Positions 10,261-36,814 of a DNA stretch of 49,548 nucleotides are shown piece after piece. This DNA is from Candidatus Undinarchaeales archaeon (GTDB taxonomy: Archaea; SpSt-1190; JASMDC01): NCBI GenBank assembly GCA_030753015.1, contig JASMDC010000026.1, positions 1 through 49,548 of the forward strand, given 5' to 3'. The notes under the pieces were generated by a model. It was given only the letters and a program-made list of their open reading frames with translations, had not been told where the DNA came from and made no database searches. Positions within the stretch are counted from its first letter, which is position 1. Each line of letters starts with the position of its first letter. The position numbers were made by a program, and so were the translations under genes.

Positions 10261-12213
10261 GTGACCCGGAGCATGGTCGCACCACTTTCGTGGGGGGATC
10301 CACATCCTGTCAAATGGACCCTCTCGCTACACCGGCTCTTGTTCCTAGCTATAATACTCCTGCTCACGTTATCATCAGCCGCTCGTCCAGAGACAGTACG
10401 GACGGACTGGGGATTCGAGCTCGCGGGCAACAAGATTGTCCATGTGGTCCAGGTCGTGAACATCACTTCTCCGGAGCGCTCAGGCTTCTTGGACGTCGCC
10501 GACATAACCGTCCCGTTCCCTATGGAGGAGGCAACGCTCGTCGCCTACGATCTGGAGGGTGTTCTCAATGCGACGGTCGAACCATTCCTCGAGGGATATA
10601 CGACATCCCTTGTGCTTCGTGAACCTCTCTTTCCTGATCACTATCTGGTGATGGCCACTGAGTATGATGTGCCCATCGAGCTCGAGGACGAGAGCGGAGG
10701 ATGGTTGTTCAGCGGCCTTGTCGCGACGGGATCCCTTGGAGAGGTCCGATTCGACATGCCCTCAGGTGTTCCTGACGATTTCGCGACCTTCGATGACCGT
10801 GTCATCGTTGATTATAATGCTTCCTCCCTATTGCTCATCCATCCGATAGGCATAGAGCCCAACATAACCCTTGGGACGGGATTGCGCATCACTTTCGTGG
10901 GAATCGAACGCGAACTGGCATTCCATCTCAAATGGACGCCTCCTGTCGGGAGCGTGGTAGTTCCTGTAGCAACATCGACGCCTTCACCCCCGTCAGCGAC
11001 CTGTTCGATCGAGGACGGAGCAACGTGCGAGACGTCAGATGCCTGCGCATGTGGTGTGGGTGGTACATGCGATATCGGGGATTCCCGAGCGGACTCACGT
11101 GGATGTGTTCTCACCGACGATGGCTGCGATCCTACCAAAGGCCAGAGCTGCATGAACTCGACCATGTGTGCATGCCCTGAAGGATACTCTTGTGAATCGA
11201 ACGATACACGTGCCGATCCTCGGGGCTGTTTCGAGCGCAGGTGTGATGATGCGGTTTGTGACGTCGCACTTCACGAATGCGAGCTCGGATGTTCGGAGTG
11301 TACCTGGCTTGACTGTCATGAGGACACCCGATGCAACCTTGCAGCCAAAGAGAATTGTACTAACACACCAGAGCAGTGCGCCTGTCCGGAAGGATGGACC
11401 TGTGATCCAGGGAACGTGTTTGCAACCGACAAGGGTTGTTTCAGTGGGGAATGTGGCGATGGTTCATGTGACAAGGATGGGGGAGAGTGCGCGGCCGGCT
11501 GCCCTGACTGTTCCGCCGATGACTGTCGGGGTGACGGAGACTGCTCCAAGGGGGTCGGGGAGGACTGCAAGAACTCGGTGGACTGTCGTTGCCCTGAAGG
11601 GATGACCTGTGACTCTGAGAAAAGGGCGTGCATAGCATCAATCAGGGCGCGCGGATGGCTCACGACAGACCTCAATGATATCACGGTGAGCGTTCTCAAA
11701 GGCGATAGTGAGCGTATCTCGTTCGATCTTAAGAACACGGGCGATGAAGCGGTGAGCGCGTCCATCTTGCTTTCGGGAGATGTTCGTGGGATGGTGTCAT
11801 TGGAGAACGCAGCGATAGAGGTTCCTCCCGGTGAGAGCGTGACGGTGGAGATGGTGGTCGAGGCAGGTGAAAATGCTACCACAGGAGTGGTCAAGGGAGC
11901 CGTGAACGTTCGGGCGACCTACGGAGCGAGGTCGCTTGTACTATCGTTCACCATCACTGTCCTCGATGAGAGCGCAACAGGTGATACAGGAGCAGGTATG
12001 ATGAGCGGAGTACCGCTTGTTGCCATCATCGTGGTCAGCGCTTTACTTATACTGGGAGTCGCTGCACGACGTATGCATGCGACGGGTAAGGGACGATCGA
12101 GCACGGCCGCAGCAGTTTCCATGCCTGGAGCGACCTACGAAGCACAACGTCCTGCCTATTACTACCCGAGACAGTCATACTACTCCAACTATCGCATGTA
12201 TCAGGGGCGGTGA
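10261..12213 (+). CDS. Secreted, membrane-anchored Cys-rich surface protein with an Ig-like (NEW3/CARDB-like) domain
   Basis: Signal peptide (LLFLAIILLLTLSSAA), beta-rich domain, PT linker, Cys repeats (CACPEG..C...ADxRGC, CGDGSC), LKNTGD Ig-like domain, C-terminal TM and a Tyr-rich tail. Confidence 0.85.
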   Translation: MTRSMVAPLSWGDPHPVKWTLSLHRLLFLAIILLLTLSSAARPETVRTDWGFELAGNKIVHVVQVVNITSPERSGFLDVADITVPFPMEEATLVAYDLEGVLNATVEPFLEGYTTSLVLREPLFPDHYLVMATEYDVPIELEDESGGWLFSGLVATGSLGEVRFDMPSGVPDDFATFDDRVIVDYNASSLLLIHPIGIEPNITLGTGLRITFVGIERELAFHLKWTPPVGSVVVPVATSTPSPPSATCSIEDGATCETSDACACGVGGTCDIGDSRADSRGCVLTDDGCDPTKGQSCMNSTMCACPEGYSCESNDTRADPRGCFERRCDDAVCDVALHECELGCSECTWLDCHEDTRCNLAAKENCTNTPEQCACPEGWTCDPGNVFATDKGCFSGECGDGSCDKDGGECAAGCPDCSADDCRGDGDCSKGVGEDCKNSVDCRCPEGMTCDSEKRACIASIRARGWLTTDLNDITVSVLKGDSERISFDLKNTGDEAVSASILLSGDVRGMVSLENAAIEVPPGESVTVEMVVEAGENATTGVVKGAVNVRATYGARSLVLSFTITVLDESATGDTGAGMMSGVPLVAIIVVSALLILGVAARRMHATGKGRSSTAAAVSMPGATYEAQRPAYYYPRQSYYSNYRMYQGR

Positions 12214-13307
12214 CGTGGCCGGGGGAAAAGCTGATAATGATGATGCGTAAAGGAGAGCCGATGGCGGTGATTGTGGGCATTGTGGATTATTTTCGTGCCA
12301 TGTGCCTTGTCACCGTATTGGGTCTTCTGTTGGCGACTCCTGTCCTTGCGAGCGAGACCGTCGTCCGCATGGACTGGGAGCTCATTATCCATCCCGACGG
12401 CATGGTGCATGTCATACAGGTCGCGAACGTCACAGTGGCCGCTCCGGACGAAATACTTTCGGACATAATCTTCACCGTCCCGTGGGATGTGGATGATGAG
12501 GGTCTCATTGCATTCGATCATACCGCTGCCTCGGCCGTGCCAGTGGTCATCGAACCCCTTCCATCCGGGAATGTGGCCATACTCTCACTGGACTCACCTT
12601 TGGTTTACGGCGAGCACCGTGTGCTCTGGATCGAGTATGACACTGTTCAACCGACCACGAAACAGGGCGCGTCCTGGACGTTCTCCACTACCATCCCCGT
12701 GGTAGGGGGTTCGACTGTCGTAGTTTCGCTCCCCGAGGGTGCCGCTATGGAGAGCGTGACGAGTGATACTCCACCAACGCGCATATCGGACATCAACGGT
12801 TCATTGAGCGTTCGGTGGGACGAGCTTGAAGGCGACCGTTTCGCGATAGGGCTTGGGTACATGACACGTGTTCGTGATGAACCATTAGTGCCAGTACCTT
12901 CGAATACACCCACAACTCCGCACGCGACGACGCCCCCGACCGGGACCTCACGTCCTGTAGCATCATCCGCTGCGGTCCCGTCGATTACCTCTTGGACACC
13001 GGTACCCTACGAACTGGTCCTTTTTGTGGCAGCGTTGTTCATTCTAATCATAGTACCCCGTGTATGGCGCGCCGGCGGTCCGTTACAACGGGTGTACTCG
13101 ATACTCAATGAACGAGAGCGGCTCATCGTCGACCTTCTATGGGAGGAGACGGGTCCGCTTAGCCAAGTCACCATCGGACGTAGGACAGGGCTCTCCACAT
13201 CCACGGTATCGAACATCGCCAGAGAGCTCGAGATACGGGGCATACTTGAGCGGATAAAAGAAGGGAAGCACGTCAGGGTGACCCTCGCTAGGGAATATCG
13301 TCGGTGA
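12210..13307 (+). CDS. Membrane-anchored winged-HTH regulator with an extracellular domain (COG2512-like); start may be ATG 12261 or 12300
   Basis: Signal peptide, ectodomain, PT-rich linker and TM, then LNERERLIVDLL...LSQVTIGRRTGLSTSTVSNIARELEIRGILER wHTH. GTGA overlap with the upstream gene. Confidence 0.85.
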   Translation: MTWPGEKLIMMMRKGEPMAVIVGIVDYFRAMCLVTVLGLLLATPVLASETVVRMDWELIIHPDGMVHVIQVANVTVAAPDEILSDIIFTVPWDVDDEGLIAFDHTAASAVPVVIEPLPSGNVAILSLDSPLVYGEHRVLWIEYDTVQPTTKQGASWTFSTTIPVVGGSTVVVSLPEGAAMESVTSDTPPTRISDINGSLSVRWDELEGDRFAIGLGYMTRVRDEPLVPVPSNTPTTPHATTPPTGTSRPVASSAAVPSITSWTPVPYELVLFVAALFILIIVPRVWRAGGPLQRVYSILNERERLIVDLLWEETGPLSQVTIGRRTGLSTSTVSNIARELEIRGILERIKEGKHVRVTLAREYRR

Positions 13308-13407
13308 AACCAGCGAACGGATCGCTCCGCACCGTCCAATCCACTTCTCGTACCGTCCACACCAATCTACTTGAACCGGAACGGTCATACCATATTGGGG
13401 ACTGGTA

Positions 13408-16400
13408 ATGGTTGGTATAATCACCACTAGAGTAAGAGCTGTAATTCTAGCGCTGGTGTTGTGCACTACACTCACGAGCGCAGTGAGCCTCTTGGATGTC
13501 ATTGAGCCGGTTCGGAGCACAGTGGTCGCACGAGATGTATCATTCGGGCTCATGAACGATTCCGATGAGGCAGCACTCCTGGACAATGTAGGCCAGAACT
13601 CGCTCGTGCAGGCGTTCTTCGAGGGTCTTGGCTCCCAGGGTATCCCGGTCGATGACCTGAAGCCCCGGGTATCGCGGACCATATCACGACGGACGTCTAC
13701 CGGAGAACAGCGTACAGTCAACGTATACTATCGACTTCGAATGGATGGGGACGTCCACGTGTTCATCCGGATCACGGTGGCCATCCATCAAGATACGATC
13801 GAGGTCCTGACCCTCTCCTTCAGGAAGCAACGCAGCTCTCTCCTAGAGAAGGCACCTCTCGATCTCCCAAAGGTATCGAAGGTGGACGAGGCACTCATGC
13901 AGAACATCACTACAACTGCCTTAGGCCATCCGAAGCTTGGACCGATCGCTGACAACCTCCTCGATGCGGAGCTGTATAAGGTCTATGCGCCCCCGTTCGT
14001 CAAAGATGGAACCGTCTCTCTCGGATTCATACCCATCGAGGGCCGATGCCGTCTTCCAGTGAAAAAGGATGAGCTCAAAGGATTGTTCTCCAAGAGGATG
14101 AGAATCTGTGATGATTGCTTGTGTCCCACAGATGAGAAACCAGTATGTGGCGAGGACTGGATCACATACGCGAATCCATGCCTCGCAAGATGCGCAGGTG
14201 TTGATGTGAGGTATGGTGGACGGTGCAAGAGCGATTGTGGGATCTACGGGACGATTCTTGTGGACATGGATATTGAGACGATGAAGGTCACACGTGTACG
14301 TATCAAGGATGTCAAGGCCATACCCTTCGGACCGGTACTCAAGTGCAAAGCGCAGGAATGCAGCGACACCCTCGTACGGTACACGAAGACCGCAAAGACA
14401 GTCGTAGGGGACCTTCATGTGGTCAGGGACGGGCTCGACCGGCTCGGGCAGGAGAAGCTGAGCAATATTATCGGGGACGACATCTCAGTGCTATCGAGGA
14501 CGTTTAACATTGACCTTGAATGCACAGAGGATTCGGAGTGCGGATTCTCTGCATGCGGCTGTAAGTGTAGTTCACGCCCCAAGGACACGGACCCGTTACG
14601 TCCATTGATGGAATGTGCACAGTTCTGCCCCGTGCGCTACTCCTGTGCCTGCATACAAGGGAAGTGCGTCAACCAGAACAAGATTTGCGTGTGTCCCAAG
14701 ATCTACAAACCCGTTTGCGGTGTCAATGGGAAGACGTATTCGAACGAGTGCAACGCTGATTGCGCTGGAGTAAAGATTGCACACGATGGGAAGTGTAGCC
14801 AGGACGTGTGCATAGGCAATATCGGGCTTGTGCAGGGTATCGAATCATTAGAGGGAGCTGTTACCAAGCATGTCATTACCTGTAAGAACTCGGATGGGAA
14901 CGCTGAGCAAGCGTACACATCGCTCATCAAGCTCGGTGACGACGATGCATTCCTCAAGACGACGTACTTCGATCCACGATCCGATGTCAAGTCCTCTATT
15001 GGTGGCGCTGCGAAGCTAGTGACGATCGTCACATGTCTCAGCCAGGTCCGCATCGAGCGGCTGAACAGAGCTGTCGCGGCGAACCAGACGAAAGATGGGA
15101 TCCAGTACGCTGACGTTGAATTCATCTCACCACAAGTACTGGGGCTCATCGACGTGCACGTGACTTCGGTCACGTGTTCATCGAACCTCATCGACGCCCA
15201 GTTCATCGAACCTTCCTTCTGCGAGGTGAACGATCAGTGCGTCAGGCAGCGGTCCTGCTGTGAGTGTGGGAAACCGACTTATGTGAACAAGTATCACTTG
15301 CAGGACAGGTTCTGCCTCCTGCAGTGCGACTGCATATCCCCACCCAATGAACGCTATGTTGGAGTCTGCAGGGAGAACCAGTGCGAGACCCTCGTCGTGC
15401 AGGACGAGCGGTTCTGTTCGACCCAATCGGACTGCCATCTACAGACGGACTGCTGTGGTCTGCAGGCGAAGTGCATCAACCGACAACTGTTCATCGGGAG
15501 GCCTGACTGTAGCGGAATACTCTGTCCTGCAATATACATGGAACCGCAGAAATGCGTATGCCGGGATAACACTTGTTCCATCACCGAGCTCAACGCATGC
15601 ATAAATGACGACGAGTGCCGTCATCTAAAATGCCCCGATCCCCTATGTGAGGACGGTGTGTGTGAGTGCGCCGGTCCCGGTACTACTGAGTGTGGGAACA
15701 AGAAATGTGAGAAGGGGGAGGAGCTGGATTGCAAGGACTGCGCAGGTCAGCTCTTTGTAACACTCCTCAACCGTGACAGGGCGACGCTCAACGAGCGGAT
15801 TGACATCGCAGCCTATTACAGCACTATTTTCAACGAGACGCTCGCGCGTGGGACCTGCTCCATGAACGTGGAAGTACTTGTACCTCTTCTTAAGGTACAG
15901 GAGGCGGACACACCACGAGAGGTGTTCTCCACATCGATCGCTGAGCTGGATACGATGGGGATCAAAGCGGCCGCATCTCCCGAGATGGTGGACCGTTCGC
16001 TCTTGCAAGGTATCCCCATGGTCTTCGATAAAGAACGCAAGGCGTTCATCGGCACGTACATCCCGGATCGATACGGCGTCCACTACATTACGGTGACATG
16101 CTTCCTCGATCCTCGAGCACCGATGATTGAAAAGGAAAAGTTGCTCGTAGAGATGAACCAATGCCAGCAGGAAGGTGGCCACTGCATCAATTTCCAGTCC
16201 TCGTGTAAGTTTGGGTACGGCGATGCCGATTTCCAGGGGTGTGCTTCGAAGTCGGAGAAATGCTGTGTCCCACGCATTGTGAAGACCTGTAACGAGGAGT
16301 GTACCGAGGAGGGATATACAGGCGGTAAATGTCGGACATGGCCGGTCATCCCCGATGTGGAGGCCTGTCTTGATGGTGAGACCCTGATCAAGTCAGAAGA

Positions 16401-17827: not shown

Positions 17828-17835
17828 TTTATATC
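17828..17835 (+). promoter_or_regulatory. TATA box heading the giant-protein operon
   Basis: TTTATATC ends ~22 nt before ATG 17857. Confidence 0.65.
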
Positions 17836-20628: not shown

Positions 20629-22463
20629 GCTTAGGAGTCGGCCACCGTGGTCAGTTCACGCTCATCGGTCTTGCAGCCATAGCACTCGTCGTGCTGATGA
20701 TCGTTATGTTCACTCTCAAGGGGACCGAGGCCGATCGTGACCGACGCATCACCGAGAGCGAAGCATCGGACATATCGCGGGTCCTTGAGAAAGAGACGCG
20801 GTTCCTCGAGGGTGTTCTTGAGGATGCTGTTGCGTCCGCCGTATTCGAGATGGGGCAGAACAGCGGGTACACCCTCGAGAACAGGCCCGGGCTAAAGCAC
20901 ATGGGCATCCCCTACCTGTTCTACCAGGGCCATGTGGTGAACGTACCTACCGTCACCGTCATGGAGGACATGCTCGCAGAAGAGGTGGAGCGGAGGGTCA
21001 CCAACGCCATCGAGAAGCACAAGGTACAGCTGCGAAAGGAGAAGCGTACCTATTCATTCGGTCATCCCGTCGTAGGGGGCATCATCGAGGAGACGGGATG
21101 TCGTCTCGACCTTAGTGTACCCATCGTTGTGGAGGCCGAGGACGGAACGATGCATGCATCGTCCACAATCGAGTTCACCCACGTGAGCCCTCTGCGCATC
21201 GGCTATTTACGGAAGCTGGCCGAGCAGTACGTACAGAACTACAACCAGCTCCGCTTCATGGAGATGGGCGTTCTTGCCGGGATCCGGGAGGACGCCCGTA
21301 TCTGGGAACCCCCAGGAAGGCTCATGCACTCAGTATCATGTAAGAATCCCCCATTCAAGGGGAAGGAGGAGATGGTGACGCCCTTCAGGGAGAACAGTCA
21401 GCTGTCGGTGGCACGTGAGCTCAAGCGCATCCGAAATCTCTTCCGTGAGGACCGCTACGTCGAGTGGAACCTCGACTTCAGGCCCACCGATACCGATTTC
21501 TCCTTCGTGGCCGATAACGATAAGTACGGGTACGAGACCGAGCGCATCTATCTAGTCCCCCAGATGCTCGCCCCCTTCTCCCCACGCTCGGACGTATGCA
21601 TCTCTCACTATGAGGTGACCTACGAGCTGAGCTGGCCGGTACAAGTATCCCTTATCGACCTCCTTCCCACGGCAAAAGTAGTAGGGGGTTCGGGATCCGC
21701 CCTCATCAAACCGCTCGAGTTCCAGTTCTATCTGGAGCCGTACCTCGGGACGAACGAGGACGGATCAGTGAACACGCGTGCCGTGAACGAGTCGGTCGAC
21801 GCACCTTCAACGGTCGATAGCAAATGCGCGGGTTCATGCAAACTAGATCTGACATTCACCAACTCCAACAACGGACGGGTATGGCTCGATACATGTGCCT
21901 ACACCTACGACGGTAGCAGGCTGTACGAGGAAGAGATCACATGCGGAGTGCACACGCTGGTCGCGGCCGATGCCACAGATCCTACCCTTGGGAAGCTGAT
22001 CAAGAGGGTGAACCTCCAGAACACGCTCAAGGAGACCTACACGATCCCGCCGGCGATAACGGTGGAAGGGACAGTGTACGAGGAACAGCGGACCTACTGT
22101 GAGATGTCTGGTACCCTTACTTCACCGAACAACGTACCGATCGTGGCCCGTGGCGGTGCACCGCCTGCTTACATCGAGGTGCTCCTAGTACCATTGGAGG
22201 TCGGTCTGGGCGAGGTCATGTACGCAGCGGCCGATGATAAGGGACACTACTCGTTCCCCCAGGTGACACCTGGTGAGTACTGGCTCGTCGCCCGCTCCAC
22301 TCCTGATGCTGATGGGCATCCTCTCATCGCAATTGATCCTGAAGGTAGAATAGTCACTATAAGTGCTGACTCTCGTCGAATAGACGTCATCATGAAGCCG
22401 CTACAGATAGCGTTCGTTCATGGTAAGTACGAGAGAGTCTCGGAGGTGAGTGACGCGTGCTGA
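20625..22463 (+). CDS. Large class III signal peptide (type IV prepilin-like) protein with a C-terminal carboxypeptidase-regulatory-like beta-sandwich
   Basis: HRG|QFTLIGLAAIALVVLMIVMF prepilin-type N-terminus, then an amphipathic helix; C-terminal ADDKGHYSFPQVTPGEYWLVA. ATGA overlap with the upstream gene. Confidence 0.8.
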   Translation: MSLGVGHRGQFTLIGLAAIALVVLMIVMFTLKGTEADRDRRITESEASDISRVLEKETRFLEGVLEDAVASAVFEMGQNSGYTLENRPGLKHMGIPYLFYQGHVVNVPTVTVMEDMLAEEVERRVTNAIEKHKVQLRKEKRTYSFGHPVVGGIIEETGCRLDLSVPIVVEAEDGTMHASSTIEFTHVSPLRIGYLRKLAEQYVQNYNQLRFMEMGVLAGIREDARIWEPPGRLMHSVSCKNPPFKGKEEMVTPFRENSQLSVARELKRIRNLFREDRYVEWNLDFRPTDTDFSFVADNDKYGYETERIYLVPQMLAPFSPRSDVCISHYEVTYELSWPVQVSLIDLLPTAKVVGGSGSALIKPLEFQFYLEPYLGTNEDGSVNTRAVNESVDAPSTVDSKCAGSCKLDLTFTNSNNGRVWLDTCAYTYDGSRLYEEEITCGVHTLVAADATDPTLGKLIKRVNLQNTLKETYTIPPAITVEGTVYEEQRTYCEMSGTLTSPNNVPIVARGGAPPAYIEVLLVPLEVGLGEVMYAAADDKGHYSFPQVTPGEYWLVARSTPDADGHPLIAIDPEGRIVTISADSRRIDVIMKPLQIAFVHGKYERVSEVSDAC

Positions 22464-28966: not shown

Positions 28967-31900
28967 ATGGTACATCGACCTGTCGTCGGTGTGGTCGTTG
29001 TCATGCTCATTCTAACGGCGGCGACCGCGGGCCTCATCCCAATGTCACAGAAGGCATCAGCGAGCGCAAAGAACCTGTGCAAGACGTGCATCGACTGCGT
29101 CGGTACCGAAGGGGAGGAGCAGAACGCCTGTCTCATGAACTGCCTGCAGGAAGGTGTCATGACGTTCCTTGGCCCCCTGTGCCAGAAGATATGCAAGGAC
29201 AGCCAGATGTGCTCGAACCTGTGCGGCAAGTGCGTACCCTGCGCTTTCGAGAAGGGCGAGGGTGCGGAGAAATGCCTCATCAAATGCGTTGGCGAATCGG
29301 TCATTCTCGGACCGCTCTGCGGTGAGCTTTGCTCGTCAGTGACCGCGCAGTCATGGATGAAGGACGCTGATAAGTGCACAGGTAAGTGCACGGAGTGTGC
29401 CTCTTGCGTTTTCGAGGACAGCGCGGACGCTCGCAAGGAGTGCGCCCTGACCTGTGTTGTGGAGGACCTGATCCTGGGCCCTCTGTGCGAGAAGGCCTGC
29501 TCAAAAGCAAAGGATGCGGCCGGGTGCACGGAAACCTGCCTGAAGGTCGCGGACTGTGCGGAATGCGCGTTCAAGGACACTGACAAGGAAAAGGAGCTGT
29601 GCGCTCTCGCATGCGTCGGGGTCAACTTCGTGTTCGATGTCGTGTGCGAGAAGGCCTGCAACAAGACCGACAATCCCGGTAACTGCACAGCGACCTGCAT
29701 GAAGATCGCCAAGGACTGTGCCCCCTGCGCAATGAAGCCCACCCCGGACACTCGCGAGGAGTGCCTGATCAGGACGTGCGTCGGATTCGAGATCATCGGC
29801 CCCCTGTGCGAGAACCTCTTCGTCGGCGACATGATTGAAAAGTGCAAGGAATGCGGAGCGTGCGCAAGGGAACCGGAGGAGAACCGCGATGCCTGCGTAA
29901 AGGAATGCGTTGGCAGGCAGCCGGAGGCTTTCGACGTGTGCGAACAGGTCAGCTGCGATCCCATATGCGGTGGCCAGCGTACTGCCGCGTGCAGGGAGCA
30001 ATGCGGTAGCGATACTGCCTGTATCGAGAGTTGCAAGCAATCGTGCATGGACGAATGCAAGCAGCTATGCGGTAGCTGTGGACAGTGCGGGTACGAGAAG
30101 AGCCGTGAGGCAATGCATGAGTGCACCATCAAGTATTGCGTCCAGCCGTTCATGATGACACCCATATGTGAGGATTTCTGTAGCAACTCGATTATGGGTC
30201 TCCAGCCACAGGAATGCGTGGCCATATGCAACTCGTGCGAGGAATGTACAATGTCCGTGGACTGCGTCACAGGTACCGCTCAGGTCGAGCCATGCCTAAA
30301 GGAATGCATGTTCGAGGATGCATGTTCAAGTAACTGCGACCGTATGTACAGCTCGTCAAAGAACGTCGATGACTGCAAGAAGAACTGCCAGAGCTGTAAG
30401 CACTGCGCCAATGAGGACAATGTCACGATGCAGCCTTGCCTCATGGAGTGCTTTGATTCACTCGACGTGAAGGAAGAATGCTCGGGTCTCTGCCAGCTGT
30501 GGGGTGTCGCGAGCGGTGATAGTATGACACGATGCCGCTCATTGTGCTCGTCGTGTATCAAATGCGATGGCTTACCCGGAGAGGCAAAGATAGGGTGCCT
30601 ACGCAACTGCACGATGGGACAGATGGAGGACTACTTCGGCGACCAATGTGACAGTATATGCAGGGACCAGAACGACACTGCGTCGTGTCGCCAGAAATGC
30701 ATGCATTGCGACAGCTGCGTGTTCGAGGGAGATGGTCAGAACATGACCTCCTGTATCCTCGATAAATGCATCCCTCCATTGGACGTGGCTAAACCCATAT
30801 GTGATGAGATATGCTCCAACGAGCCCGACGTCGATGCATGTGTCGCGTCCTGTCTGGCGAAACCGGAGTGCGTACACCTCGACACGCGACGCAAGCGTCA
30901 GGACTGTTACACTGAACACGTCGCGCCCGCTCAGCTGGGGCCCTCGTGCGACCAGCTCTGCGAGGAGCTACCGGAACCCGACAAGTGCAAACGTCGGTGC
31001 CGGAGCTGTAATCTCTGCATGAACGACCGGGGCACTAATCGTGATGGATGCCTGGAGCGATGCGCCGACCGGGGGCGAAGAGGTGACTCGTGCGAGGACC
31101 ATTGCGCTTCGGCAAAGAATCCTCGGACATGCAGGAGCGCCTGCATGACATGTCCGATGTGCGACCGGCTCGAAGGGGAGGCACTACAGTCGTGCATCGC
31201 TGAGTGCACGGGAGAGGTCACGGCCCAGATGACGTTCGACATGTGCGACGATCTTTGTTCGACATACAACGATTTCGACCGTTGCATGGCAGCATGTGGT
31301 GACTGCGATCAATGTTCGATGGGGCCCGATCAGTACGGGTGTCTGGAAGAGTGCGTTGATGCCACCGATCCCGGCCTCGACTTCTCTGCCAAGGAGAAGG
31401 AGAAGAAGGAGAAGGCAAAGAAGGCTCTCCTCTCGGGCATGTGCGACCTCGCGTTCGGCAACTTCTGGGATGCGTTCTCCTGCGATCTGGTATGCTCCAT
31501 GGGAGGCGTGTGCCCCATCGTGGATGAGCGGTACCTTCTCAAGTGTCCGCCAATGGCGCAGGAGAACCTCTACCTCTACTACAGCGACCTCATCACCTAC
31601 TTCGAGAACGTGGCCCTGTTCTACGAGAACATGGAGAAGGCCCTGGACGGTATCATGTTGGGAACGGTGGGCCTGTGCGCCATGTGCAATTACGAGCTAA
31701 TTAATCTCCAAGCCACCTACGGCACCTGTTCGGGTATCTGGAATCCCACACCGTGGGGTGCGGCGACAATCCCCTGGAACGAGTGGATGTGCGACGTCTC
31801 CGGCATGATCAGTTGCCAACCACGTATCTGTTCGACGGTACCAGGTGTCAACCGGTGCCCGCAGCTCTGCTCCACGGCCACGTGTCACCACACGATAGCG

Positions 31901-34900
31901 CCGTACATATGCTGTTGTGGATGGCCGGGCTGCTGCCCCAGCTATTTTGCGACACCATCCACGACGCTCCATGTAAATCCTACGGCTATGAAGACCTGTC
32001 ATCGGTTCGTCCATGAGACCGATGACGCGTGTACCATGGAGGGCCTGTGGTGGCGAGGGGTCGTGGAGGCACCCGCTCTGCGCAATCCGTGCCATGTTGT
32101 GACCAAGATAGCTGAGCTCAAGAACTACGTCCACAAGTTCCGGACCGAGATCCTCCCCGACATCATCGTACAGTTGCGTGCCATGCGTGCCAACGCCCGC
32201 CGCTGCACCGTACGCGTCTCCTGCTCGTCCAACATCAAGATCTATCTCGATCTCCTCGAGGAGATATGGGACCGGGCCAACCACATAGATGGCTGGGATA
32301 CAGAGAAGTTCGAGTTCGAGACCAACAAGTTCACCCTTGCCATGCAGGACTTTAACGAAGACATCAACTCAGGCGGTTCAGGATTCGGCTTCGACTTCTC
32401 AGGCGGCGCCGGTTGGACCAACTTCAAGACCGGTCTCAGTGTGGGTGCTTCGGCCTACTTTGATAATATGCAGGGGAAGAATCCCGAGAAGTACCTTGTA
32501 TGGGTACCGGACTACAATCCCCCATATTGTGTCCCCGGTGCCACTGGCGTTGCGACGACCGCAGCCACGACTGTAGCGGTGGACAAGGTCGTCGATAAGC
32601 TGAAGAAGACCTTAAAAGAAAAGATGATGGAGGCAGTGAAGGAGACCTTCGGTGTCAGACAGATCGCGACGCTCGTTGCTTACCATACAGAGCTCATCGC
32701 AATTTCCCTGACCAACTCGTTCGCCGGTGTGGCAGGCGTCCCAGGGCCGTGGTGCACCGGAGGTTTTCCCATGACGTGCATAGACGCCTTCCCAATACGC
32801 TGGCACCTGGTCGAGGGTTCGAACCTCGGGGAGGACCTTGTGTTCAAAATGCCAGTCATCCCCAGCTGCGGAGTGGAGGCCTTCGCGAAGTCGATGCCCG
32901 GTGACGCCTTCTGGCACTACAACGAGTGCCTGCTCTACCAGGGCCATACGCCCGATCCTACGGGCGGAGATGAGGAGGAACTGGAAGAGGAACTCGAGGA
33001 AGAGGAAGAGGTAGAAGAGGAGGAGCTTGAGGAAGAGGAATGGGAAGAGGAGGAAGAAGAGTTCGAGGAAGAGGTCGACTGCTCTGACAAGGAGGACCTG
33101 GAACCTTGTTTCGAGGGTGATGGTCTCTGCTGCAACGGTGAATGCATACCTGGGGCCGAGGCATGTACCACGGAAGGTGAAGAGGAGTGCGCCGGGGCCG
33201 AGGAGGAGGCCGCTTGTGGCGGCGGAAAGGGCATTTGCTGCTTCGGGGCCTGTGTCCCCGGGGCGAGCGGATGTGGTGAGGAAGAGGATGAGTGCGCAGG
33301 TGAGAATGCAGGTGCGCCCTGTGATGGTGGTAAGTGCTGTGAAGGCCGATGCGTACCAGGGGCCACCGGTTGCAGTGGAACAGCGGACTGTATCAAGAGG
33401 CCAGATGGTGCATCCTGTGTAAACGGTACAGGCATGTGTTGCGAACAGAACTGTATCCCGGGTGCTGAAGCATGCGCCGTAGCACCCGAGTGCCAGCCCG
33501 GGTACGATGGGCTACCCTGTGCGGACGGGACATGCTGCGATGGCGTGTGCGTACCGGGAGCATTATCATGTGGCGGGTACTCGCATGAGTGTGTGGAAGG
33601 GGGCGACCTCTCGGTCTGCTCGGGTGACGGTCTCTGTTGTAGGGAACGGTGCCTCCCCGGAGCGACATCCTGTGGTGGAAGACCGGGCGGAGAGCTCCCC
33701 ACCGATATCGCGGAGGTCTGCACGAGAGCCTGCGATGAAGCCAGCGGGGGCGATCATTACTGCCATCCCACCGAACGTATGTGCACCTGTCGTACAACGA
33801 GAGGACCGGTGTACGTCGCAGAGATACCTTGCGCTCCGCGTGTCTCCGAACGTTTGGTAGCAGGACTGCGAAGGTGTTGCGAGAGCAAAGGGATGGAAGA
33901 GGTAGACGAGTGTTACAACGAGGAAAGCGAGACCGGCTTCTGCTGTCAGGGAGCGTTCACGGAAGTGCCCATTGAGATCGAGTGCGTAAAGGACGCACCG
34001 GTCGTGGAGATCGCCTCTCTTGCCTGGATGTACGGGAACAGGCAGGTCCTCTCTATGGTGGCCGGTACGACCGTTAATCTTACCGCCGTCCTCAGGAACA
34101 CCGGCAAGCGTCTCGAGGACGGTGACCTATCGTTCCGTATCGACGCTGAAGGGGAACGACATCTCTCACGCGATGAGCATCACATAGCGATCAGTGGATC
34201 GAGCGTACGTCGTGTGGGCCTTCCGATCGAGCTGGAGCCACGGCTCGCGGGTGGATCGCTCACGGCGCTCGCGATCCTTGGATACCTCAACGTCCAAGTG
34301 TCGTCCGAGCCCATACGCCTCTATGTCCTTGCCGAGGACACCGTGGACGTGGCCGATGGCTACTTCGAGTCGTCGGGTGAGCGTGATTATTACGTACTTG
34401 CCGGTGATGTGGTGGCCGCCGCTGCAGCAGTGACATCCTCGAAGAACGAGTCGATCGAAGCGGTCATCGAGGTGGTCATGACCGCTAATGGTACGGAACT
34501 GGAAGCGACAAGGACCAAAAAGGCCACGACGTTGGAGCGTAGCGCGACCGTTACCGTCAGAACTCCGACCCGGTTCATCGGTGAGGGGAACGTGGGGACA
34601 GAGCTTGGTATGATCGTACGGGTAGAGGGTATCGGGGGAGAGGTCCTCCAGTACAAACGGCTTGAGGTCGATATCTATCCTGATGCAGTGAAGATCGTCA
34701 GCTCGCCATATCTCTTCCTGCGTGATGTCGCCTGGCGGGACGATGGAGGAAGAAGGATGGAACGGACCTATGAGGGCGTCCAGACGAAGGCCGAGGTGAC
34801 GTTGCACAATCCGCTCGCTATATCTTTCGACGGTACGGTGACGGTCGAGGTCGTGGACGGTCAAGGGAATATCGTGGCGACTGGGAGCCGTCACGCGGTC

Positions 34901-35266
34901 ATCGATATGGACGCTTCGGCCATCGTCCAGACAGTACCGTTCACCGCAACCCTCACAGAGGCCTTTGCCGTTGGACCCGATGGTTCGGCAGTCCTCAAGA
35001 AGGAGGACAGCGTGTACCGCGTCAGGGTGACCGCCAGGACCGATGCCATAACCTGGGCGGACATCGACGACCATGTGTTCGTGCTCGAGACGCGTGCCCT
35101 CGGCGAGGGCGGGACCTCGGATGTCATGGCCTCGAGCGAGTTCGAGGGTTGTAGCCTCAGCGTCAGCTGCACCGCGTGCACCGAGGGATGTGAGATCACG
35201 ATCAAGGACTGCGAGCCGGTCCTCAACCTTTGCAAATGTGTGGAGTGCACATTCTCGAGAGGATGA
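28967..35266 (+). CDS. Giant secreted Cys-rich repeat protein, paralog 2 (2099 aa)
   Basis: GAGGT SD at 28956-28960 and a signal peptide ending ATA|GLIP. Collinear with paralog 1 throughout, with repeats at ~29078-31354 and poly-Glu at 32972-33073. Confidence 0.92.
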   Translation: MVHRPVVGVVVVMLILTAATAGLIPMSQKASASAKNLCKTCIDCVGTEGEEQNACLMNCLQEGVMTFLGPLCQKICKDSQMCSNLCGKCVPCAFEKGEGAEKCLIKCVGESVILGPLCGELCSSVTAQSWMKDADKCTGKCTECASCVFEDSADARKECALTCVVEDLILGPLCEKACSKAKDAAGCTETCLKVADCAECAFKDTDKEKELCALACVGVNFVFDVVCEKACNKTDNPGNCTATCMKIAKDCAPCAMKPTPDTREECLIRTCVGFEIIGPLCENLFVGDMIEKCKECGACAREPEENRDACVKECVGRQPEAFDVCEQVSCDPICGGQRTAACREQCGSDTACIESCKQSCMDECKQLCGSCGQCGYEKSREAMHECTIKYCVQPFMMTPICEDFCSNSIMGLQPQECVAICNSCEECTMSVDCVTGTAQVEPCLKECMFEDACSSNCDRMYSSSKNVDDCKKNCQSCKHCANEDNVTMQPCLMECFDSLDVKEECSGLCQLWGVASGDSMTRCRSLCSSCIKCDGLPGEAKIGCLRNCTMGQMEDYFGDQCDSICRDQNDTASCRQKCMHCDSCVFEGDGQNMTSCILDKCIPPLDVAKPICDEICSNEPDVDACVASCLAKPECVHLDTRRKRQDCYTEHVAPAQLGPSCDQLCEELPEPDKCKRRCRSCNLCMNDRGTNRDGCLERCADRGRRGDSCEDHCASAKNPRTCRSACMTCPMCDRLEGEALQSCIAECTGEVTAQMTFDMCDDLCSTYNDFDRCMAACGDCDQCSMGPDQYGCLEECVDATDPGLDFSAKEKEKKEKAKKALLSGMCDLAFGNFWDAFSCDLVCSMGGVCPIVDERYLLKCPPMAQENLYLYYSDLITYFENVALFYENMEKALDGIMLGTVGLCAMCNYELINLQATYGTCSGIWNPTPWGAATIPWNEWMCDVSGMISCQPRICSTVPGVNRCPQLCSTATCHHTIAPYICCCGWPGCCPSYFATPSTTLHVNPTAMKTCHRFVHETDDACTMEGLWWRGVVEAPALRNPCHVVTKIAELKNYVHKFRTEILPDIIVQLRAMRANARRCTVRVSCSSNIKIYLDLLEEIWDRANHIDGWDTEKFEFETNKFTLAMQDFNEDINSGGSGFGFDFSGGAGWTNFKTGLSVGASAYFDNMQGKNPEKYLVWVPDYNPPYCVPGATGVATTAATTVAVDKVVDKLKKTLKEKMMEAVKETFGVRQIATLVAYHTELIAISLTNSFAGVAGVPGPWCTGGFPMTCIDAFPIRWHLVEGSNLGEDLVFKMPVIPSCGVEAFAKSMPGDAFWHYNECLLYQGHTPDPTGGDEEELEEELEEEEEVEEEELEEEEWEEEEEEFEEEVDCSDKEDLEPCFEGDGLCCNGECIPGAEACTTEGEEECAGAEEEAACGGGKGICCFGACVPGASGCGEEEDECAGENAGAPCDGGKCCEGRCVPGATGCSGTADCIKRPDGASCVNGTGMCCEQNCIPGAEACAVAPECQPGYDGLPCADGTCCDGVCVPGALSCGGYSHECVEGGDLSVCSGDGLCCRERCLPGATSCGGRPGGELPTDIAEVCTRACDEASGGDHYCHPTERMCTCRTTRGPVYVAEIPCAPRVSERLVAGLRRCCESKGMEEVDECYNEESETGFCCQGAFTEVPIEIECVKDAPVVEIASLAWMYGNRQVLSMVAGTTVNLTAVLRNTGKRLEDGDLSFRIDAEGERHLSRDEHHIAISGSSVRRVGLPIELEPRLAGGSLTALAILGYLNVQVSSEPIRLYVLAEDTVDVADGYFESSGERDYYVLAGDVVAAAAAVTSSKNESIEAVIEVVMTANGTELEATRTKKATTLERSATVTVRTPTRFIGEGNVGTELGMIVRVEGIGGEVLQYKRLEVDIYPDAVKIVSSPYLFLRDVAWRDDGGRRMERTYEGVQTKAEVTLHNPLAISFDGTVTVEVVDGQGNIVATGSRHAVIDMDASAIVQTVPFTATLTEAFAVGPDGSAVLKKEDSVYRVRVTARTDAITWADIDDHVFVLETRALGEGGTSDVMASSEFEGCSLSVSCTACTEGCEITIKDCEPVLNLCKCVECTFSRG

Positions 35267-35565
35267 TGGTGAGTACTGCTAACGATTCAATTCGTCGCCG
35301 AACGGGAAGGTGGGCGATTATCGGATTGTTATCGCTCATCATCATGATGAACACAGGACTCGCGGGCCTCATACCCTTGAGCGGGCAGTGGTCCGGAGCT
35401 GCCAAGGGCATGTGCAAGAGCTGCATCCAGTGCGCTAACATGGAGGGTGAGGAGCAGAAGGCCTGCCTCATGGAATGCCTGCGTGCGGGCGTCGGTTATC
35501 TCCTTGGTCCTCTCTGCGTCCTCATCGTCCTCGATCACGGGCTCCCGGTCGAAGCATGGTCCTGA
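35263..35565 (+). pseudogene. Truncated third paralog of the giant Cys-rich proteins (homology ends at ~35517)
   Basis: ATGA overlap with paralog 2. Signal peptide plus GLIPLSGQWSGAAKGMCKSCIQC...EGEEQKACLMECLRAGVGYLLGPLC matches both paralogs, then 15 unrelated residues and a stop. Confidence 0.85.
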
Positions 35566-36588
35566 TGTATACTGTTCACAATGCCCTTTCCAGTCGCCCC
35601 CTCCCGTCAGACCGACACCTTCGGTCCTCTTAGGCCCCTCTCCCCGTCCGATGTCCGTGTACACGCTCGGATCGGCCAAGGTGGCGATGACAGCGCGCAT
35701 TTCGGTCTGGAAGCTGGTGATGTCGTAGTCGTCGGTGGTGAACGACGCACCGATCGTGGACTCGAGCCTCTGAAGGTCCTCTTCGATGCGCTCTGGTGTC
35801 AATCCGCTAGCCGTGGCCTCGCGCACCCGTCCGGCCATGTCGTCCATGGTATCGGCGAGCTCGGGGAGGAGAGGGACCACGGTCCCCGCAAGGTAACCGT
35901 TTAGCTCTTCCACCGTCTGGGCAAGCTCGCATACGTTGGCATTCTTGCCGAAGGTGCATACATCGTTGATCGCATGTACCATCCGGGAGCATTCCAGCAC
36001 TTTCACAGGGGCCGGAAGGCTCTTGTCATGGGAATCGCAATCATGTCCCTTGCGTTCGGGGATGTTTTCGCAGAGGACGCATGAAGAGCTACTACCACTG
36101 CAACTGGCCTGTGCAGCGATTCCGCAGACTTTAGGGTCCACGATACTGGTCGGTGCTAGTTCAAGACCGCTCCCGCAATGAGGATAATCTGCCGAGATGA
36201 ACTCATCCCTTACCTGGTTGCATACATCACACTGTATCCGCAAGGCCTGGGTAAGAAGCCCCAGGTCTTCGCTCAAAGCACCGTAGAATGAATCCGCCCG
36301 CTCGTAGAACGCTTTACCCTCTTCGAGATAGTGCACGATGTTGATGTATGGTCGGGCCGAGCAGTCCATGAGCGCAGCGTTAAGGGGAACAGCAGTTTCA
36401 TTGATGATCACTCCCCCTCTGACGGAGAAGGGCATCTGACAAGCGCTACCGGTCATGTAATCGATGGGCATTGGCGAGGGTGTCGGGGTGGCCGGGCCCT
36501 CTTCACTGCACGTGAGCGATGTGATAACGAGAATACTGAGCAACAGGACCAGAGCATGATGCCTTGTCACGCCTAATCTCAAGTCCAT
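35512..36588 (-). pseudogene. Secreted (possibly lipoprotein) diverged homolog of the giant-protein core domain, 3'-truncated; the ORF runs on to 35329 through the antisense of paralog 3
   Basis: GGTGA SD before ATG 36588, TTATTAA box near 36659-36665 and a hydrophobic leader ending ITSLTC. It aligns by eye to the core domain of paralogs 1 and 2, and the last ~60 codons are antisense to paralog 3. Confidence 0.7.
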
Positions 36589-36814
36589 GTCATCATCACC
36601 GTTCCACGGATTACCAGGATACATCTATCCCTTCCTGATGTTGATACTGCCCACGGTAATTAATAAGGCTAATCCTTGGAGATCAGATTGGACTGCCGTA
36701 AGGCCGTTTACCCTTTCTAAACCTGAATCCCGCGGTTTCTAGGCACTACTGCTGACTTCTCGGAGTCTGAATGTGGTCGGTCGTTCAAGTCCGCAAGGAA
36801 ATGTTTTTAAGGTG

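What the first reader, a model, noticed from the sequence alone, without database searches (positions are those of the whole stretch)
10261..36624. A ~26-kb archaeal locus for a disulfide-rich extracellular apparatus: TM regulator, Kazal protein, prepilin-like subunit and tandem giant proteins
Seen: nine consecutive genes all encode exported proteins. From 17857 to 35565 they are coupled behind one TATA box (ATGA overlaps at 20625 and 35263, SD sites at 22442 and 28956). The order is Ig-like protein, class III prepilin-like protein, then three paralogous giant Cys-rich proteins. None of the intact operon products has a C-terminal TM anchor, so the prepilin-like N-terminal helix is the only obvious tether. 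Known: archaeal PibD/FlaK-processed proteins assemble into type IV filaments. Inference: this is a pilus-associated adhesin, tip or coat complex for cell-cell or host contact. I do not recognise it as a described system.
Basis: partly seen in the sequence, partly recalled or inferred. Interest (0 to 1): 0.85.

Follow-up and report, generated by a model that had tools for sequence, protein, structure and literature searches.

The report
Pilin-like anchor with giant surface proteins
A marine archaeon carries about twenty copies of an unannotated gene cassette that pairs a large pilin-like protein and a chain of Ig-like domains with giant cysteine-rich secreted proteins, probably to display adhesins on the cell surface, and the pilin-like part also sits next to giant proteins in many small DPANN-type archaea.

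Summary
The sequence-level observation is confirmed, but the 26-kb "locus" is composite. The conserved unit is the operon D-E-F-G (17857-35266). D is a string of Ig-like domains. E is a 612-aa protein with a class-III-type (RGQ + hydrophobic) N-terminus. F and G are paralogous, anchorless giants with 9.6-9.8% Cys. It is syntenic in the sister species and under strong purifying selection (dN/dS 0.06-0.08). A-B-C (Cys-rich membrane protein, membrane wHTH regulator, Kazal protein) are missing at this site in the sister species. H and I are stubs left by a ~13.3-kb deletion that removed a third giant and a convergent neighbouring cassette. An IS element lies beside them.

D-E is a module with about 20 paralogous copies in this 3.85-Mb genome. 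Of 21 E-like genes, 19 have an adjacent D-like gene and 12 have a flanking ORF of 1000 aa or more. E is homologous (hhalign 99.8%) to unannotated ~640-aa proteins in AT-rich metagenome contigs. There, 42 of 53 are directly followed by an ORF of 1000 aa or more.

No Pfam, NCBIfam or PDB family covers D, E, F or G. Prepilin peptidase, ATPase and platform genes exist elsewhere in the genome.

Best reading (0.5): a surface-display/adhesin cassette anchored by a modular pilin-like subunit. Whether it sits on a filament or on the membrane is open.

The parts
10222..10229 (+). TATA-like box (TTTATATC) 32 nt before the start of A
   Evidence: sequence seen
10261..12213 (+). A: 650-aa protein with a signal peptide, an N-domain paralogous to B's ectodomain, Cys-rich repeats (5.5% Cys) and a C-terminal TM helix. 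Part of the A-B-C block that is absent at this site in the sister species.
   Evidence: (28% id to B's N-domain; paralog on C73); no Pfam or NCBIfam hit
12210..13307 (+). B: 365-aa membrane-bound one-component regulator: ectodomain, TM helix and a C-terminal winged helix (DUF7343/MarR-type). No ortholog found in the sister species.
   Evidence: DUF7343 E 2.4e-7, MarR_2 1.5e-6; TM at 262-280
13408..17775 (+). C: 1455-aa secreted protein, 9.6% Cys, with three Kazal-type domains. Paralog on contig C73 next to an A-like gene.
   Evidence: (Kazal_1 E 3.5e-18, 3 stretches)
17828..17835 (+). TATA-like box (TTTATATC) 29 nt before the ATG of D. The same promoter region is conserved in the sister species, where it directly follows the gene homologous to 9405-10169.
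17857..20628 (+). D: 923-aa secreted protein, a chain of about nine beta-sandwich (Ig-like) domains with two small Cys-rich modules and a conserved C-terminal ~170 aa. Member of a 20-copy family always paired with E-likes.
   Evidence: dN/dS 0.07
20625..22463 (+). E: 612-aa modular pilin-like protein. Class-III-type N-terminus (HRGQ + hydrophobic), predicted helix 8-78, alpha/beta domain to about 400, two transthyretin/CnaB-like beta-sandwiches at 404-597, invariant C-terminal Cys.
   Evidence: dN/dS 0.06
22457..28957 (+). F: 2166-aa secreted giant without an anchor. Signal peptide, about 13 Cys-rich repeats (to ~870), 'I-domain' (916-1204), poly-Glu linker (~1400-1437), six CC-x-C repeats (1438-1640), three Ig-like domains, C-terminal Cys knot.
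   Evidence: dN/dS 0.08
28967..35266 (+). G: 2099-aa paralog of F (54% identity over the full length) with the same architecture; I-domain at 857-1134.
   Evidence: dN/dS 0.08
35263..35565 (+). H: stub (first ~85-100 codons) of a third F/G paralog. The sister species has the intact 2150-aa gene here.
35513..35518 (.). Deletion breakpoint. To the left the window is collinear with giant 3 of the sister species, to the right with codon ~371 of a convergent 1212-aa gene. About 13.3 kb is missing (giant 3 body, E', D', C-part of I'). An independent DNA run has a contig across it.
   Evidence: (X8 record 31, 34649-35601)
35329..36624 (-). I: 431-aa ORF. It is the N-terminal 371 aa (signal peptide + I-domain at 72-341) of the upstream giant of the lost neighbouring cassette, reading on into the antisense of H.
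36528..38540 (+). IS element (DDE transposase ORF 36835-38496), absent at this site in the sister species.
   Evidence: (DDE_Tnp_1 E 2.7e-9)

Best explanation
The functional unit is the operon D-E-F-G (17857-35266). It is one of about 20 paralogous cassettes in this genome. I read it as a surface-display (adhesin) cassette.

E is a modular type-IV-pilin-like protein. Its class-III-type signal (HRG|Q + hydrophobic helix) would be cut by one of the genome's A24 prepilin peptidases. The remaining N-terminal helix would hold the protein in the membrane, or in a short type-IV filament built by ATPase and platform genes encoded elsewhere. D (an Ig-domain string) and the giant Cys-rich proteins F and G are exported by ordinary signal peptides and have no anchor of their own. 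They would be held at the surface by binding to E and D, possibly through the conserved terminal cysteines. They would form a long disulfide-stabilised arm for contact with cells or particles. The different cassettes would carry different distal giants and so give a repertoire of specificities.

Shown: gene structure, paralogy, synteny, purifying selection, motif conservation, predicted folds, and homology of E to a family in AT-rich (DPANN-type) metagenome contigs that is likewise followed by giant ORFs.

Inferred: cleavage, anchoring, D-E-giant binding, adhesion, and any filament.

A-B-C are a separate, variable neighbour block. H and I are deletion stubs.
For: Junctions and the single TATA-like box are as described.

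D-E-F-G are collinear in the sister species at 88-94% aa identity, with dN/dS of 0.057-0.084. Six flanking housekeeping genes give 0.04-0.16.

Of 21 E-like ORFs in the genome, 19 have a same-strand D-like ORF within 300 nt, and 18 of these overlap or abut. 12 of 21 are flanked by a same-strand ORF of 1000 aa or more. 20 of 21 have a distinct ortholog in the sister species at 81-96% identity, while paralogs are 28-63% identical.

[KR][GA]Q + hydrophobic stretch is present in 15 of 17 own-genome paralogs. The same motif heads small ORFs directly beside T4F ATPase, platform and peptidase genes on C63, C73 and C28.

The genome has 4 Peptidase_A24, 5 T2SSE (over cut-off) and 7 T2SSF matches.

The E profile finds ~600-700-aa proteins that begin M..K[KR]GQ + hydrophobic. 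hhalign of E paralogs against these gives probability 99.8%, E 1.1e-27, over 497 columns. In 80 metagenome loci there are 85 E-like ORFs. 83 carry the motif. 42 of the 53 with enough downstream DNA are directly followed by a same-strand ORF of 1000 aa or more.

Adhesin-type modules occur in relatives: FG-GAP in the giant of the C117 cassette, VWA fused to an E-like protein, P0101, and FG-GAP behind an RGQ signal on C60.

Complex prediction of E 30-612 with D 520-923 gave weak support. ipSAE was 0.54 (runs 0.54, 0.54, 0.51) against a best control of 0.00. Runs agree in at least 89% of contacts, and the partner's pLDDT is at least 79. That mark was reached by 58 of 80 solved complexes and 2 of 110 mismatched pairs. 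At 0.60 or under it was reached by only 7 of those 80, and by both mismatches.

Three RNA libraries from two studies hold 29 short contigs (28 at 99% or more) between 17878 and 32571. One spans the E/F junction.

Literature context: archaeal T4F loci often carry large Ig-rich adhesin-like proteins, and in DPANN the pilin genes are scattered away from the machinery (PMC13705601, sections 7, 11, 12, 14, 17 and passages read; PMC4858521, passages).
Against: No Pfam pilin family (or any family over its cut-off) matches E.

No solved pilin appeared among the Foldseek or VIA matches. These were filled by the C-terminal beta-sandwiches, so the N-domain was barely tested.

T4F core genes are not linked. 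Only the C26 cassette lies about 2 kb from a T2SSE gene, and two others lie 8-15 kb from a core gene. BLASTP with the genome's own core proteins found none among 639 ORFs of the 80 metagenome loci.

A globular part of about 530 residues cannot sit in the body of a filament.

D has no detectable homolog next to the distant E-likes (D profile 0 hits; hhalign probability 0.1). The three-part cassette is therefore confined to this genus among the genomes searched: 2 of 17 genomes of the phylum and 2 of 41 relatives.

9 of 21 E-likes have no flanking ORF of 1000 aa or more.

The complex score is in the weak band.

The RNA contigs could be DNA carry-over.

Adhesion itself rests on analogy only.
Confidence: 0.5

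Rival explanations
1. Envelope scaffold without a filament. E is simply an N-terminally anchored membrane stalk, whether or not it is cut. D and the giants form a canopy or wall layer on it, like a two-component S-layer (anchor plus large lattice protein). No type-IV machinery is involved.
Against: The strictly conserved [KR][GA]Q + hydrophobic start is the signature of class III signal peptides. In this genome it is shared with small ORFs beside T4F genes. 21 diverged copies per genome do not fit one lattice. The SlaB match is a generic beta-sandwich, tied with dozens of unrelated rows. SlaB is anchored at its C-terminus; E is anchored at its N-terminus.
Confidence: 0.25
2. Export helper. E acts like a pseudopilin (type-II-secretion-like piston) or a dedicated membrane chaperone. 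It helps the huge disulfide-rich proteins across or out of the envelope and is not part of the final structure.
For: A pilin-like protein is constantly adjacent to very large secreted proteins in two distant lineages, although the giants themselves are unrelated. This suggests a generic service rather than a specific partner. One E per cassette is consistent with this.
Against: Paralogous E proteins are only 28-63% identical and each is conserved 1:1 between species. That fits specific partners better than a generic helper. E carries two Ig-like domains typical of exposed stalks. No secretin-like or outer-layer pore component was seen in the cassettes.
Confidence: 0.1
3. All nine genes from 10261 to 36624 (TM regulator, Kazal protein, A, D-H and I) form one 26-kb apparatus locus.
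For: All are co-located and encode membrane or secreted, mostly Cys-rich proteins. Another D-E cassette (C32) is also followed by a TM + DUF7343 wHTH protein, so regulators of B's type may serve such cassettes. An independent DNA run has a contig across the C/D junction, so the adjacency is real in this strain (X8 record 25).
Against: A-B-C are absent between the same flanking gene and the same D promoter in the sister species. B has no ortholog there. A- and C-like genes form their own pair on C73 without D-E. H and I are truncated remnants.
Confidence: 0.07

Closest known systems
Modular (bimodular) type IV pilins and minor-pilin tip complexes of bacteria, e.g. Streptococcus sanguinis PilB (pilin moiety + vWA module) and PilA/PilC (PMC8179133 and PMC9934059: search listing and abstracts only)
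   Same: A class-III-type signal and N-terminal helix are followed by a large grafted globular part. Relatives of E carry adhesin modules: VWA in P0101, and FG-GAP behind an RGQ signal on C60. A role at a filament tip or surface in adhesion is proposed for both.
   Different: There is no sequence or detected structural match. E is archaeal and its gene is not in a T4F operon. Its constant partners are an Ig-string protein and giants of 2000 aa or more. Processing and filament incorporation are untested.
Large adhesin-like or PilY-like proteins of archaeal T4F loci (arCOG03508/DUF2341, arCOG03511, arCOG05616, arCOG07037; PMC4858521 passages; PMC13705601 sections and passages)
   Same: Large signal-peptide proteins, often built of Ig folds with conserved cysteines, are proposed to sit on pili as adhesins.
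   Different: Those are encoded inside T4F loci next to the ATPase and platform; D, F and G are not. No DUF2341/PilY domain was found by Pfam. Membership in those arCOGs could not be tested here.
Sulfolobales bindosome (class-III-signal substrate-binding proteins displayed by a T4F-like machine; PMC13705601 abstract and passages)
   Same: Large non-pilin proteins with a class III signal peptide are thought to be held at the surface by their pilin-like N-terminus rather than to form long pili.
   Different: E has no substrate-binding-protein domain. It is paired with giant structural proteins, not with ABC transporters.
SlaA/SlaB two-component S-layer of Sulfolobus (PDB 8qox)
   Different: The anchor is at the opposite end. 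There are 21 paralogous pairs instead of one, and there is no sequence similarity.
Aureispira grappling-hook protein GhpA (PDB 9fly, 9flp)
   Same: It is the best Foldseek hit of D (E 1.5e-15). Both are long strings of Ig-like domains on a surface appendage.
   Different: The TM-score is only 0.13. The likeness is the generic Ig repeat, not an architecture.

Membership tests
Archaeal type IV pilin-like proteins (class III signal peptide substrates) | Short basic leader ending in [KR]-[GA], followed by about 20 hydrophobic residues at the extreme N-terminus | tested here: met
   E has HRGQ + 20 hydrophobic residues. The motif is in 15 of 17 own-genome paralogs and 83 of 85 distant homologs.
Archaeal type IV pilin-like proteins (class III signal peptide substrates) | Cleavage by a PibD/EppA-type (Peptidase_A24) prepilin peptidase | not testable with these tools
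   Only the presence of 4 Peptidase_A24 matches in the genome is shown.
Archaeal type IV pilin-like proteins (class III signal peptide substrates) | Pilin fold: long N-terminal helix whose C-half packs on an antiparallel sheet | tested here: inconclusive
   The AF2 model has helix 8-78, helix 110-138 and strands 143-188. No solved pilin was among the Foldseek or VIA rows, which cover mostly residues 404-597.
Archaeal type IV pilin-like proteins (class III signal peptide substrates) | Match to a curated pilin family (I recall these as Class_IIIsignal, Pilin_N and DUF361-type; the names are recalled, not from a call) | tested here: not met
   Pfam gives only CarboxypepD_reg below its cut-off (E 6.4e-4). 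NCBIfam gives nothing.
Archaeal type IV pilin-like proteins (class III signal peptide substrates) | Assembly by a linked ATPase and platform | tested here: inconclusive
   The machinery is present in the genome but unlinked. 1 of 21 E-likes lies within 5 kb of a core gene. Scattered pilin genes are reported as usual in DPANN (PMC13705601 section 7).
Two-component S-layer (SlaA/SlaB type) | Stalk protein with C-terminal TM and coiled coil; a single abundant lattice protein | tested here: not met
   E's only hydrophobic segment is N-terminal. There are 21 E-like and 20 D-like copies.
PilY1/DUF2341-type pilus tip adhesins | DUF2341 or PilY beta-propeller domain | tested here: not met
   No such Pfam hit in D, F or G. 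FG-GAP occurs only in the giant of the paralogous C117 cassette.
Kazal-type serine protease inhibitor domain (protein C) | Kazal_1/Kazal_2 profile match over the cut-off | tested here: met
   Kazal_1 E 3.5e-18 (65.8 bits, cut-off 21), 3 stretches. Inhibitory activity was not tested.
Membrane-bound wHTH regulators with DUF7343 (protein B) | C-terminal DUF7343/MarR-type winged helix after a TM helix | tested here: met
   DUF7343 E 2.4e-7 (30.9 bits, cut-off 27.6) at residues 299-358; TM at 262-280.

The most novel reading that the evidence does not exclude
E defines an undescribed family of ~600-aa modular pilins, spread across archaea with small AT-rich genomes (DPANN-type). These are the dedicated base of anchorless giant surface proteins, forming a 'pilin-anchored giant adhesin' system. 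In a 3.85-Mb marine relative of Undinarchaeota the system has expanded to about 20 stably inherited cassettes with an added Ig-string adaptor (D). This would be the cell-to-cell contact apparatus from which DPANN host attachment is built.
Probability: 0.3. Interest if true: 0.8.

Novelty: new variant of a known kind. Interest (0 to 1): 0.62.

Why it matters
How DPANN and related archaea hold on to other cells is an open question. Imaging shows pili-like links (PMC7906910, passages read), but the proteins are unknown.

This work defines a testable candidate: a conserved, wholly unannotated pairing of a pilin-like protein with giant secreted proteins. It is found in many small-genome archaea and is multiplied about twentyfold in a large-genome marine relative.

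It gives concrete targets: E's cleavage site, D-E binding, and the giants' distal domains.

It also shows that about 13% of this genome is spent on proteins of 1000 aa or more. That is a striking investment in the cell surface for a lineage classed beside ultra-small symbionts.

Tried and rejected
Family and structure searches that gave nothing useful:
- Pfam and NCBIfam on all nine proteins: nothing for A, D, F, G or I.
- Sequence profiles of E and of the I-domain against PDB chains: only a NOMO2/SdrD beta-sandwich for E (E 0.002 and 0.039) and a chance designed helix for the I-domain.
- Atlas search with I: poor model, no usable hit.
- Foldseek on D: only generic Ig strings, TM 0.13.
- D profile and hhalign against the ~1050-aa proteins that follow distant E-likes: no homology.
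- I-domain HMM and BLASTP of A-I against the 639 ORFs of the metagenome loci: only E matched.
- Pfam on ten small RGQ-headed ORFs: only a sub-threshold archaellin hit and FG-GAP. Their pilin nature therefore rests on motif and neighbourhood.

Ideas considered and dropped:
- Toxin, defence or mobile-element cargo: no such domains, and the cassettes are stable 1:1 between species.
- Fast antigenic-variation-type turnover: rejected for the same reason, although one cassette was lost here by deletion.

Weak or partial tests:
- A24 peptidase and T2SSE are present in 5 of 5 small genomes that hold an E-like gene. There was no control set without E-likes, so this says little.
- Read laying: no RNA contig lies on 33009-37000. 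This is a hole only and proves nothing.

Literature. I found no description of this cassette or of this large-genome lineage. The supplements of PMC13705601 (S4/S5 tables and S10 Fig on DPANN T4F components and SPIII proteins) could not be seen. They may already list E-like proteins.

Correction. My note said '19 E-likes' carry the motif. The counts checked against the outputs are 15 of 17 and 15 full-length plus one split piece.

Full report
WHAT IS IN THE WINDOW

The window is contig C36 of a 3.85-Mb, 117-contig archaeal genome, 98.9% complete with 5% contamination. Its only congener among the genomes held is labelled 'Candidatus Undinarchaeota archaeon'. The other 15 genomes of the phylum are 0.6-1.2 Mb.

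Between 10261 and 36624 lie nine large ORFs:
- A (10261-12213, 650 aa)
- B (12210-13307, 365 aa)
- C (13408-17775, 1455 aa)
- D (17857-20628, 923 aa from the ATG after the TATA-like box)
- E (20625-22463, 612 aa)
- F (22457-28957, 2166 aa)
- G (28967-35266, 2099 aa)
- H (35263-35565, 100 aa)
- I (35329-36624, 431 aa, minus strand)

There are ATGA overlaps at 20625 and 35263. GGAGGTGA lies before 22457 and GAGGT before 28967. TTTATATC occurs on the + strand only at 10222 (before A) and at 17828, 29 nt before D's ATG.

Each protein has an N-terminal hydrophobic segment. Only A and B have a second one.

Pfam finds three Kazal stretches in C and a DUF7343/MarR-type winged helix at the C-terminus of B. 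It finds nothing over cut-off in A, D, E, F, G or I. NCBIfam adds nothing.

THE 26-KB LOCUS IS COMPOSITE

In the sister species, window 93-10169 and 17804-35518 are collinear at 84-88% nucleotide identity. The 7.6 kb holding A, B and C is missing. There, about 115 nt separate the homolog of gene 9405-10169 from the same D promoter. B has no ortholog in that genome. A- and C-like genes form a pair of their own on contig C73.

On the right side, the sister species has a full third giant of 2150 aa, 48% identical to F and G. After it comes a convergent cassette of a 1212-aa gene, a D-like gene (939 aa) and an E-like gene (595 aa).

The window keeps only the first ~85-100 codons of the third giant (H) and the first 371 codons of the 1212-aa gene. 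The latter read on into the antisense of H and so give the 431-aa ORF I. About 13.3 kb is missing, with the breakpoint at 35513-35518. A contig from a DNA run not flagged as the source spans this breakpoint, and another spans the C/D junction. Neither junction is therefore an assembly artefact of this record alone.

An IS element with a DDE transposase (36528-38540) is a further difference.

THE CORE GENES ARE REAL AND CONSTRAINED

D, E, F and G are 92.7, 93.5, 88.8 and 88.8% identical to their orthologs. Their dN/dS values are 0.071, 0.057, 0.084 and 0.078. This is in the range of flanking housekeeping genes (0.04-0.16).

Three metatranscriptome libraries from two studies hold 29 short contigs on 17878-32571, 28 of them at 99% identity or more. 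One crosses the E/F junction. This is only a hint of transcription, since DNA carry-over is not excluded. The DNA is found in seawater and marine metagenomes of 11 studies.

D-E IS A MULTI-COPY MODULE

A search with E found 25 matches in the own genome, 27 in the sister genome, and none in 39 other archaeal genomes. With a profile, the result was 2 of 17 genomes of the phylum.

HMM searches of all ORFs of 300 aa or more give 21 E-like and 20 D-like ORFs:
- 19 of the 21 E-likes have a same-strand D-like within 300 nt.
- 18 of these overlap or abut it. The order is mostly D then E, and E then D in four cassettes.
- 12 of 21 are flanked by a same-strand ORF of 1000-3327 aa.

20 of 21 have their own ortholog in the sister species at 81-96% identity, while paralogs share 28-63%. 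The repertoire is therefore old and stably inherited.

A ~290-residue Cys-containing 'I-domain', modelled from I and its relatives, occurs in F (916-1204, E 2e-25) and G (857-1134). It is found in 25 proteins of the genome, 12 of them in D-E cassettes.

The genome as a whole encodes 98 proteins of 1000 aa or more, 13% of its bases. 57 of them have 3% Cys or more. F and G themselves have only three relatives (57-71% identity) in the 5.8-billion-protein index and one full-length paralog on C51.

WHAT E LOOKS LIKE

E begins with HRGQ followed by about 20 hydrophobic residues. [KR][GA]Q is present in 15 of 17 own-genome paralogs.

A genome-wide scan for this motif gave 53 ORFs. These comprise 15 full-length E-likes, one split piece, and 26 ORFs of 139-363 aa. 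Among the small ones:
- two lie directly upstream of an ATPase and two platform genes on C63
- two flank a platform gene on C73
- four lie beside an A24 peptidase on C28

Pfam does not recognise these small ORFs as pilins. It gives one sub-threshold archaellin hit, and one ORF carries FG-GAP repeats.

The AF2 model of E (18 sequences, pLDDT 86) has the following parts:
- a helix from 8 to 78
- a helix (110-138) and four strands (143-188)
- more alpha/beta structure to about 400
- two beta-sandwiches at 404-597

D (pLDDT 81) is a chain of about nine beta-sandwich domains with two small Cys-rich modules. Its Foldseek hits are generic Ig strings at TM 0.13.

E HAS DISTANT RELATIVES WITH THE SAME KIND OF NEIGHBOUR

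A profile of the paralogs against 1.84 billion representatives found about 26 full-length members. It also found ~600-700-aa proteins matching profile positions 8 to ~350. The ten I read begin M..K[KR]GQ (one has a serine in the place of the glycine) + hydrophobic stretch. Nine of the ten have no Pfam family. One (P0101) carries a C-terminal VWA domain. Profile-profile comparison gives probability 99.8%, E 1.1e-27, over 497 columns. The Atlas structure search likewise pointed to unnamed clusters labelled Nanobdellota/Woesearchaeota.

A scan of metagenome contigs returned 80 loci (median GC 37%) with 85 E-like ORFs in 73 loci. 83 have the motif. 42 of the 53 with at least 3.2 kb downstream are directly followed by a same-strand ORF of 1001-2278 aa.

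Many loci show a tandem arrangement: an E-like gene, a ~1050-aa protein, a ~800-1300-aa protein and a ~265-aa membrane protein, then a second E-like gene, a ~2000-aa protein and another ~265-aa membrane protein. None of these has a Pfam family over cut-off.

The big neighbours are not homologous to D, F or G. No T4F core gene was found in these loci by BLASTP.

Among 81 sampled archaeal genomes the family is in 8.

HOW IT MOST LIKELY WORKS

What is shown:
- a tightly packed operon for one pilin-like protein and three anchorless secreted proteins
- conservation of the pairing in about 20 paralogous cassettes, and of the pilin-like-plus-giant pairing in a distant lineage
- presence of prepilin peptidases and T4F machinery in the genome

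What is inferred:
- E is processed like a pilin, and its N-terminal helix stays in the membrane or in a short filament.
- D and the giants are held by E.
- The assembly mediates contact.

A complex prediction of E 30-612 with D 520-923 gave weak support. ipSAE was 0.54 against a best control of 0.00. Runs agree in at least 89% of contacts, and the partner's pLDDT is at least 79. Scores in this band were reached by 7 of 80 solved complexes and by both of the 2 of 110 mismatches that passed.

Adhesin-type modules in relatives fit adhesion: FG-GAP in the C117 giant, VWA on P0101, and FG-GAP behind an RGQ signal on C60.

I put 0.5 on this reading. The split between 'filament tip' and 'membrane stalk' is open.

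The main rival, at 0.25, is an envelope scaffold with no type-IV machinery. The missing linkage to T4F genes and the core-like conservation in small genomes favour it. The strict class-III-type motif and the 21 diverged copies speak against it. An export-helper (pseudopilin-like) role is possible (0.1).

COMPARISON WITH WHAT IS KNOWN

The closest concepts are:
- bacterial modular pilins and minor-pilin tip complexes (PMC8179133 and PMC9934059, listing and abstracts)
- the large adhesin-like or PilY-like proteins of archaeal T4F loci, and the bindosome (PMC13705601, outline, sections 7 and 11 and passages; PMC4858521, passages)
- the SlaA/SlaB S-layer pair

The cassette works like these on paper, but it fails the tested membership features. 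There is no curated pilin family, no PilY/DUF2341 domain, no substrate-binding domain, and the anchor is at the opposite end to SlaB.

I found no paper describing the cassette, the E family or this large-genome lineage. The supplements of PMC13705601, which list SPIII proteins of DPANN genomes, could not be read.

VERDICT

The true unit is D-E-F-G. It is one member of a large paralogous family of cassettes built around an unannotated modular pilin-like protein. That protein's homologs accompany giant proteins in other small-genome archaea.

I class it as a new variant of a known kind (pilin-associated surface adhesin systems), with interest 0.62.

Noticed in passing
whole genome G000 (window = C36): A 3.85-Mb genome (98.9% complete, 5% contamination) is classed in the same class and phylum as 15 genomes of 0.6-1.2 Mb. 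Its congener is titled 'Candidatus Undinarchaeota archaeon'. A large-genome, apparently metabolically richer relative of ultra-small DPANN archaea. The 5% contamination and 117 contigs call for a check of the bin.
   Followed up: partly
whole genome G000: 98 ORFs of 1000 aa or more take 13% of the bases. 57 of them have 3% Cys or more. The longest is an 8347-aa ORF on C40 (16585-41628), and there is a 4130-aa ORF with 15.4% Cys on C51 (104057-116449).
   Followed up: partly
window 46440-49535 (-): A 1031-aa ORF with 13.1% Cys and no Pfam family runs to the window's end. It is another Cys-rich giant outside the finding.
   Followed up: no
L136, L103, L109, L123, L075, L085, L140 and other metagenome loci: A conserved same-strand cluster in AT-rich (GC about 37%) contigs: E-like, ~1050-aa secreted protein, ~800-1300-aa protein, ~265-aa membrane protein, second E-like, ~2000-aa secreted protein, second ~265-aa membrane protein. 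None has a Pfam family over cut-off.
   Followed up: partly
G000 C117:21271-23697 (not in a stored locus): A 382-aa ORF whose N-terminus reads like a tubulin/CetZ-type glycine-rich motif (my reading of the letters, not tested) lies directly before a T2SSF platform gene. It is about 8 kb from a D-E cassette. PMC13705601 reports CetZ2 next to subsystem 4F loci.
   Followed up: no
L036:5408-6421 (G000 C32:12408-13421): A second D-E cassette is directly followed by a signal/TM protein with a C-terminal DUF7343 winged helix (E 9.3e-13), the same kind of regulator as B. Membrane-bound wHTH sensors may belong to some cassettes.
   Followed up: partly
L150:376-1440 (G000 C60:3876-4940, minus strand): A 354-aa ORF with a KRGQ + hydrophobic start carries FG-GAP repeats (E 9.4e-18). 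This is a small modular pilin-like adhesin candidate.
   Followed up: no
L038:188-2025 (G000 C39:6688-8525) and L039:114-8036 (C39:25914-33836): One E-like gene is split into a 113-aa N-piece and a 499-aa rest. Another E-like segment (profile positions 59-473) is embedded in a 2640-aa giant. These are examples of decay and of fusion within the family.
   Followed up: no
window 13408-17775: Three Kazal-type domains occur in an archaeal 1455-aa Cys-rich protein, with a paralog on C73. The family is best known from animals. Origin and activity are unexplored.
   Followed up: no
window 5433-7985: Two tandem Na+/H+ exchanger paralogs (402 and 413 aa), both full-length Pfam matches.
   Followed up: no
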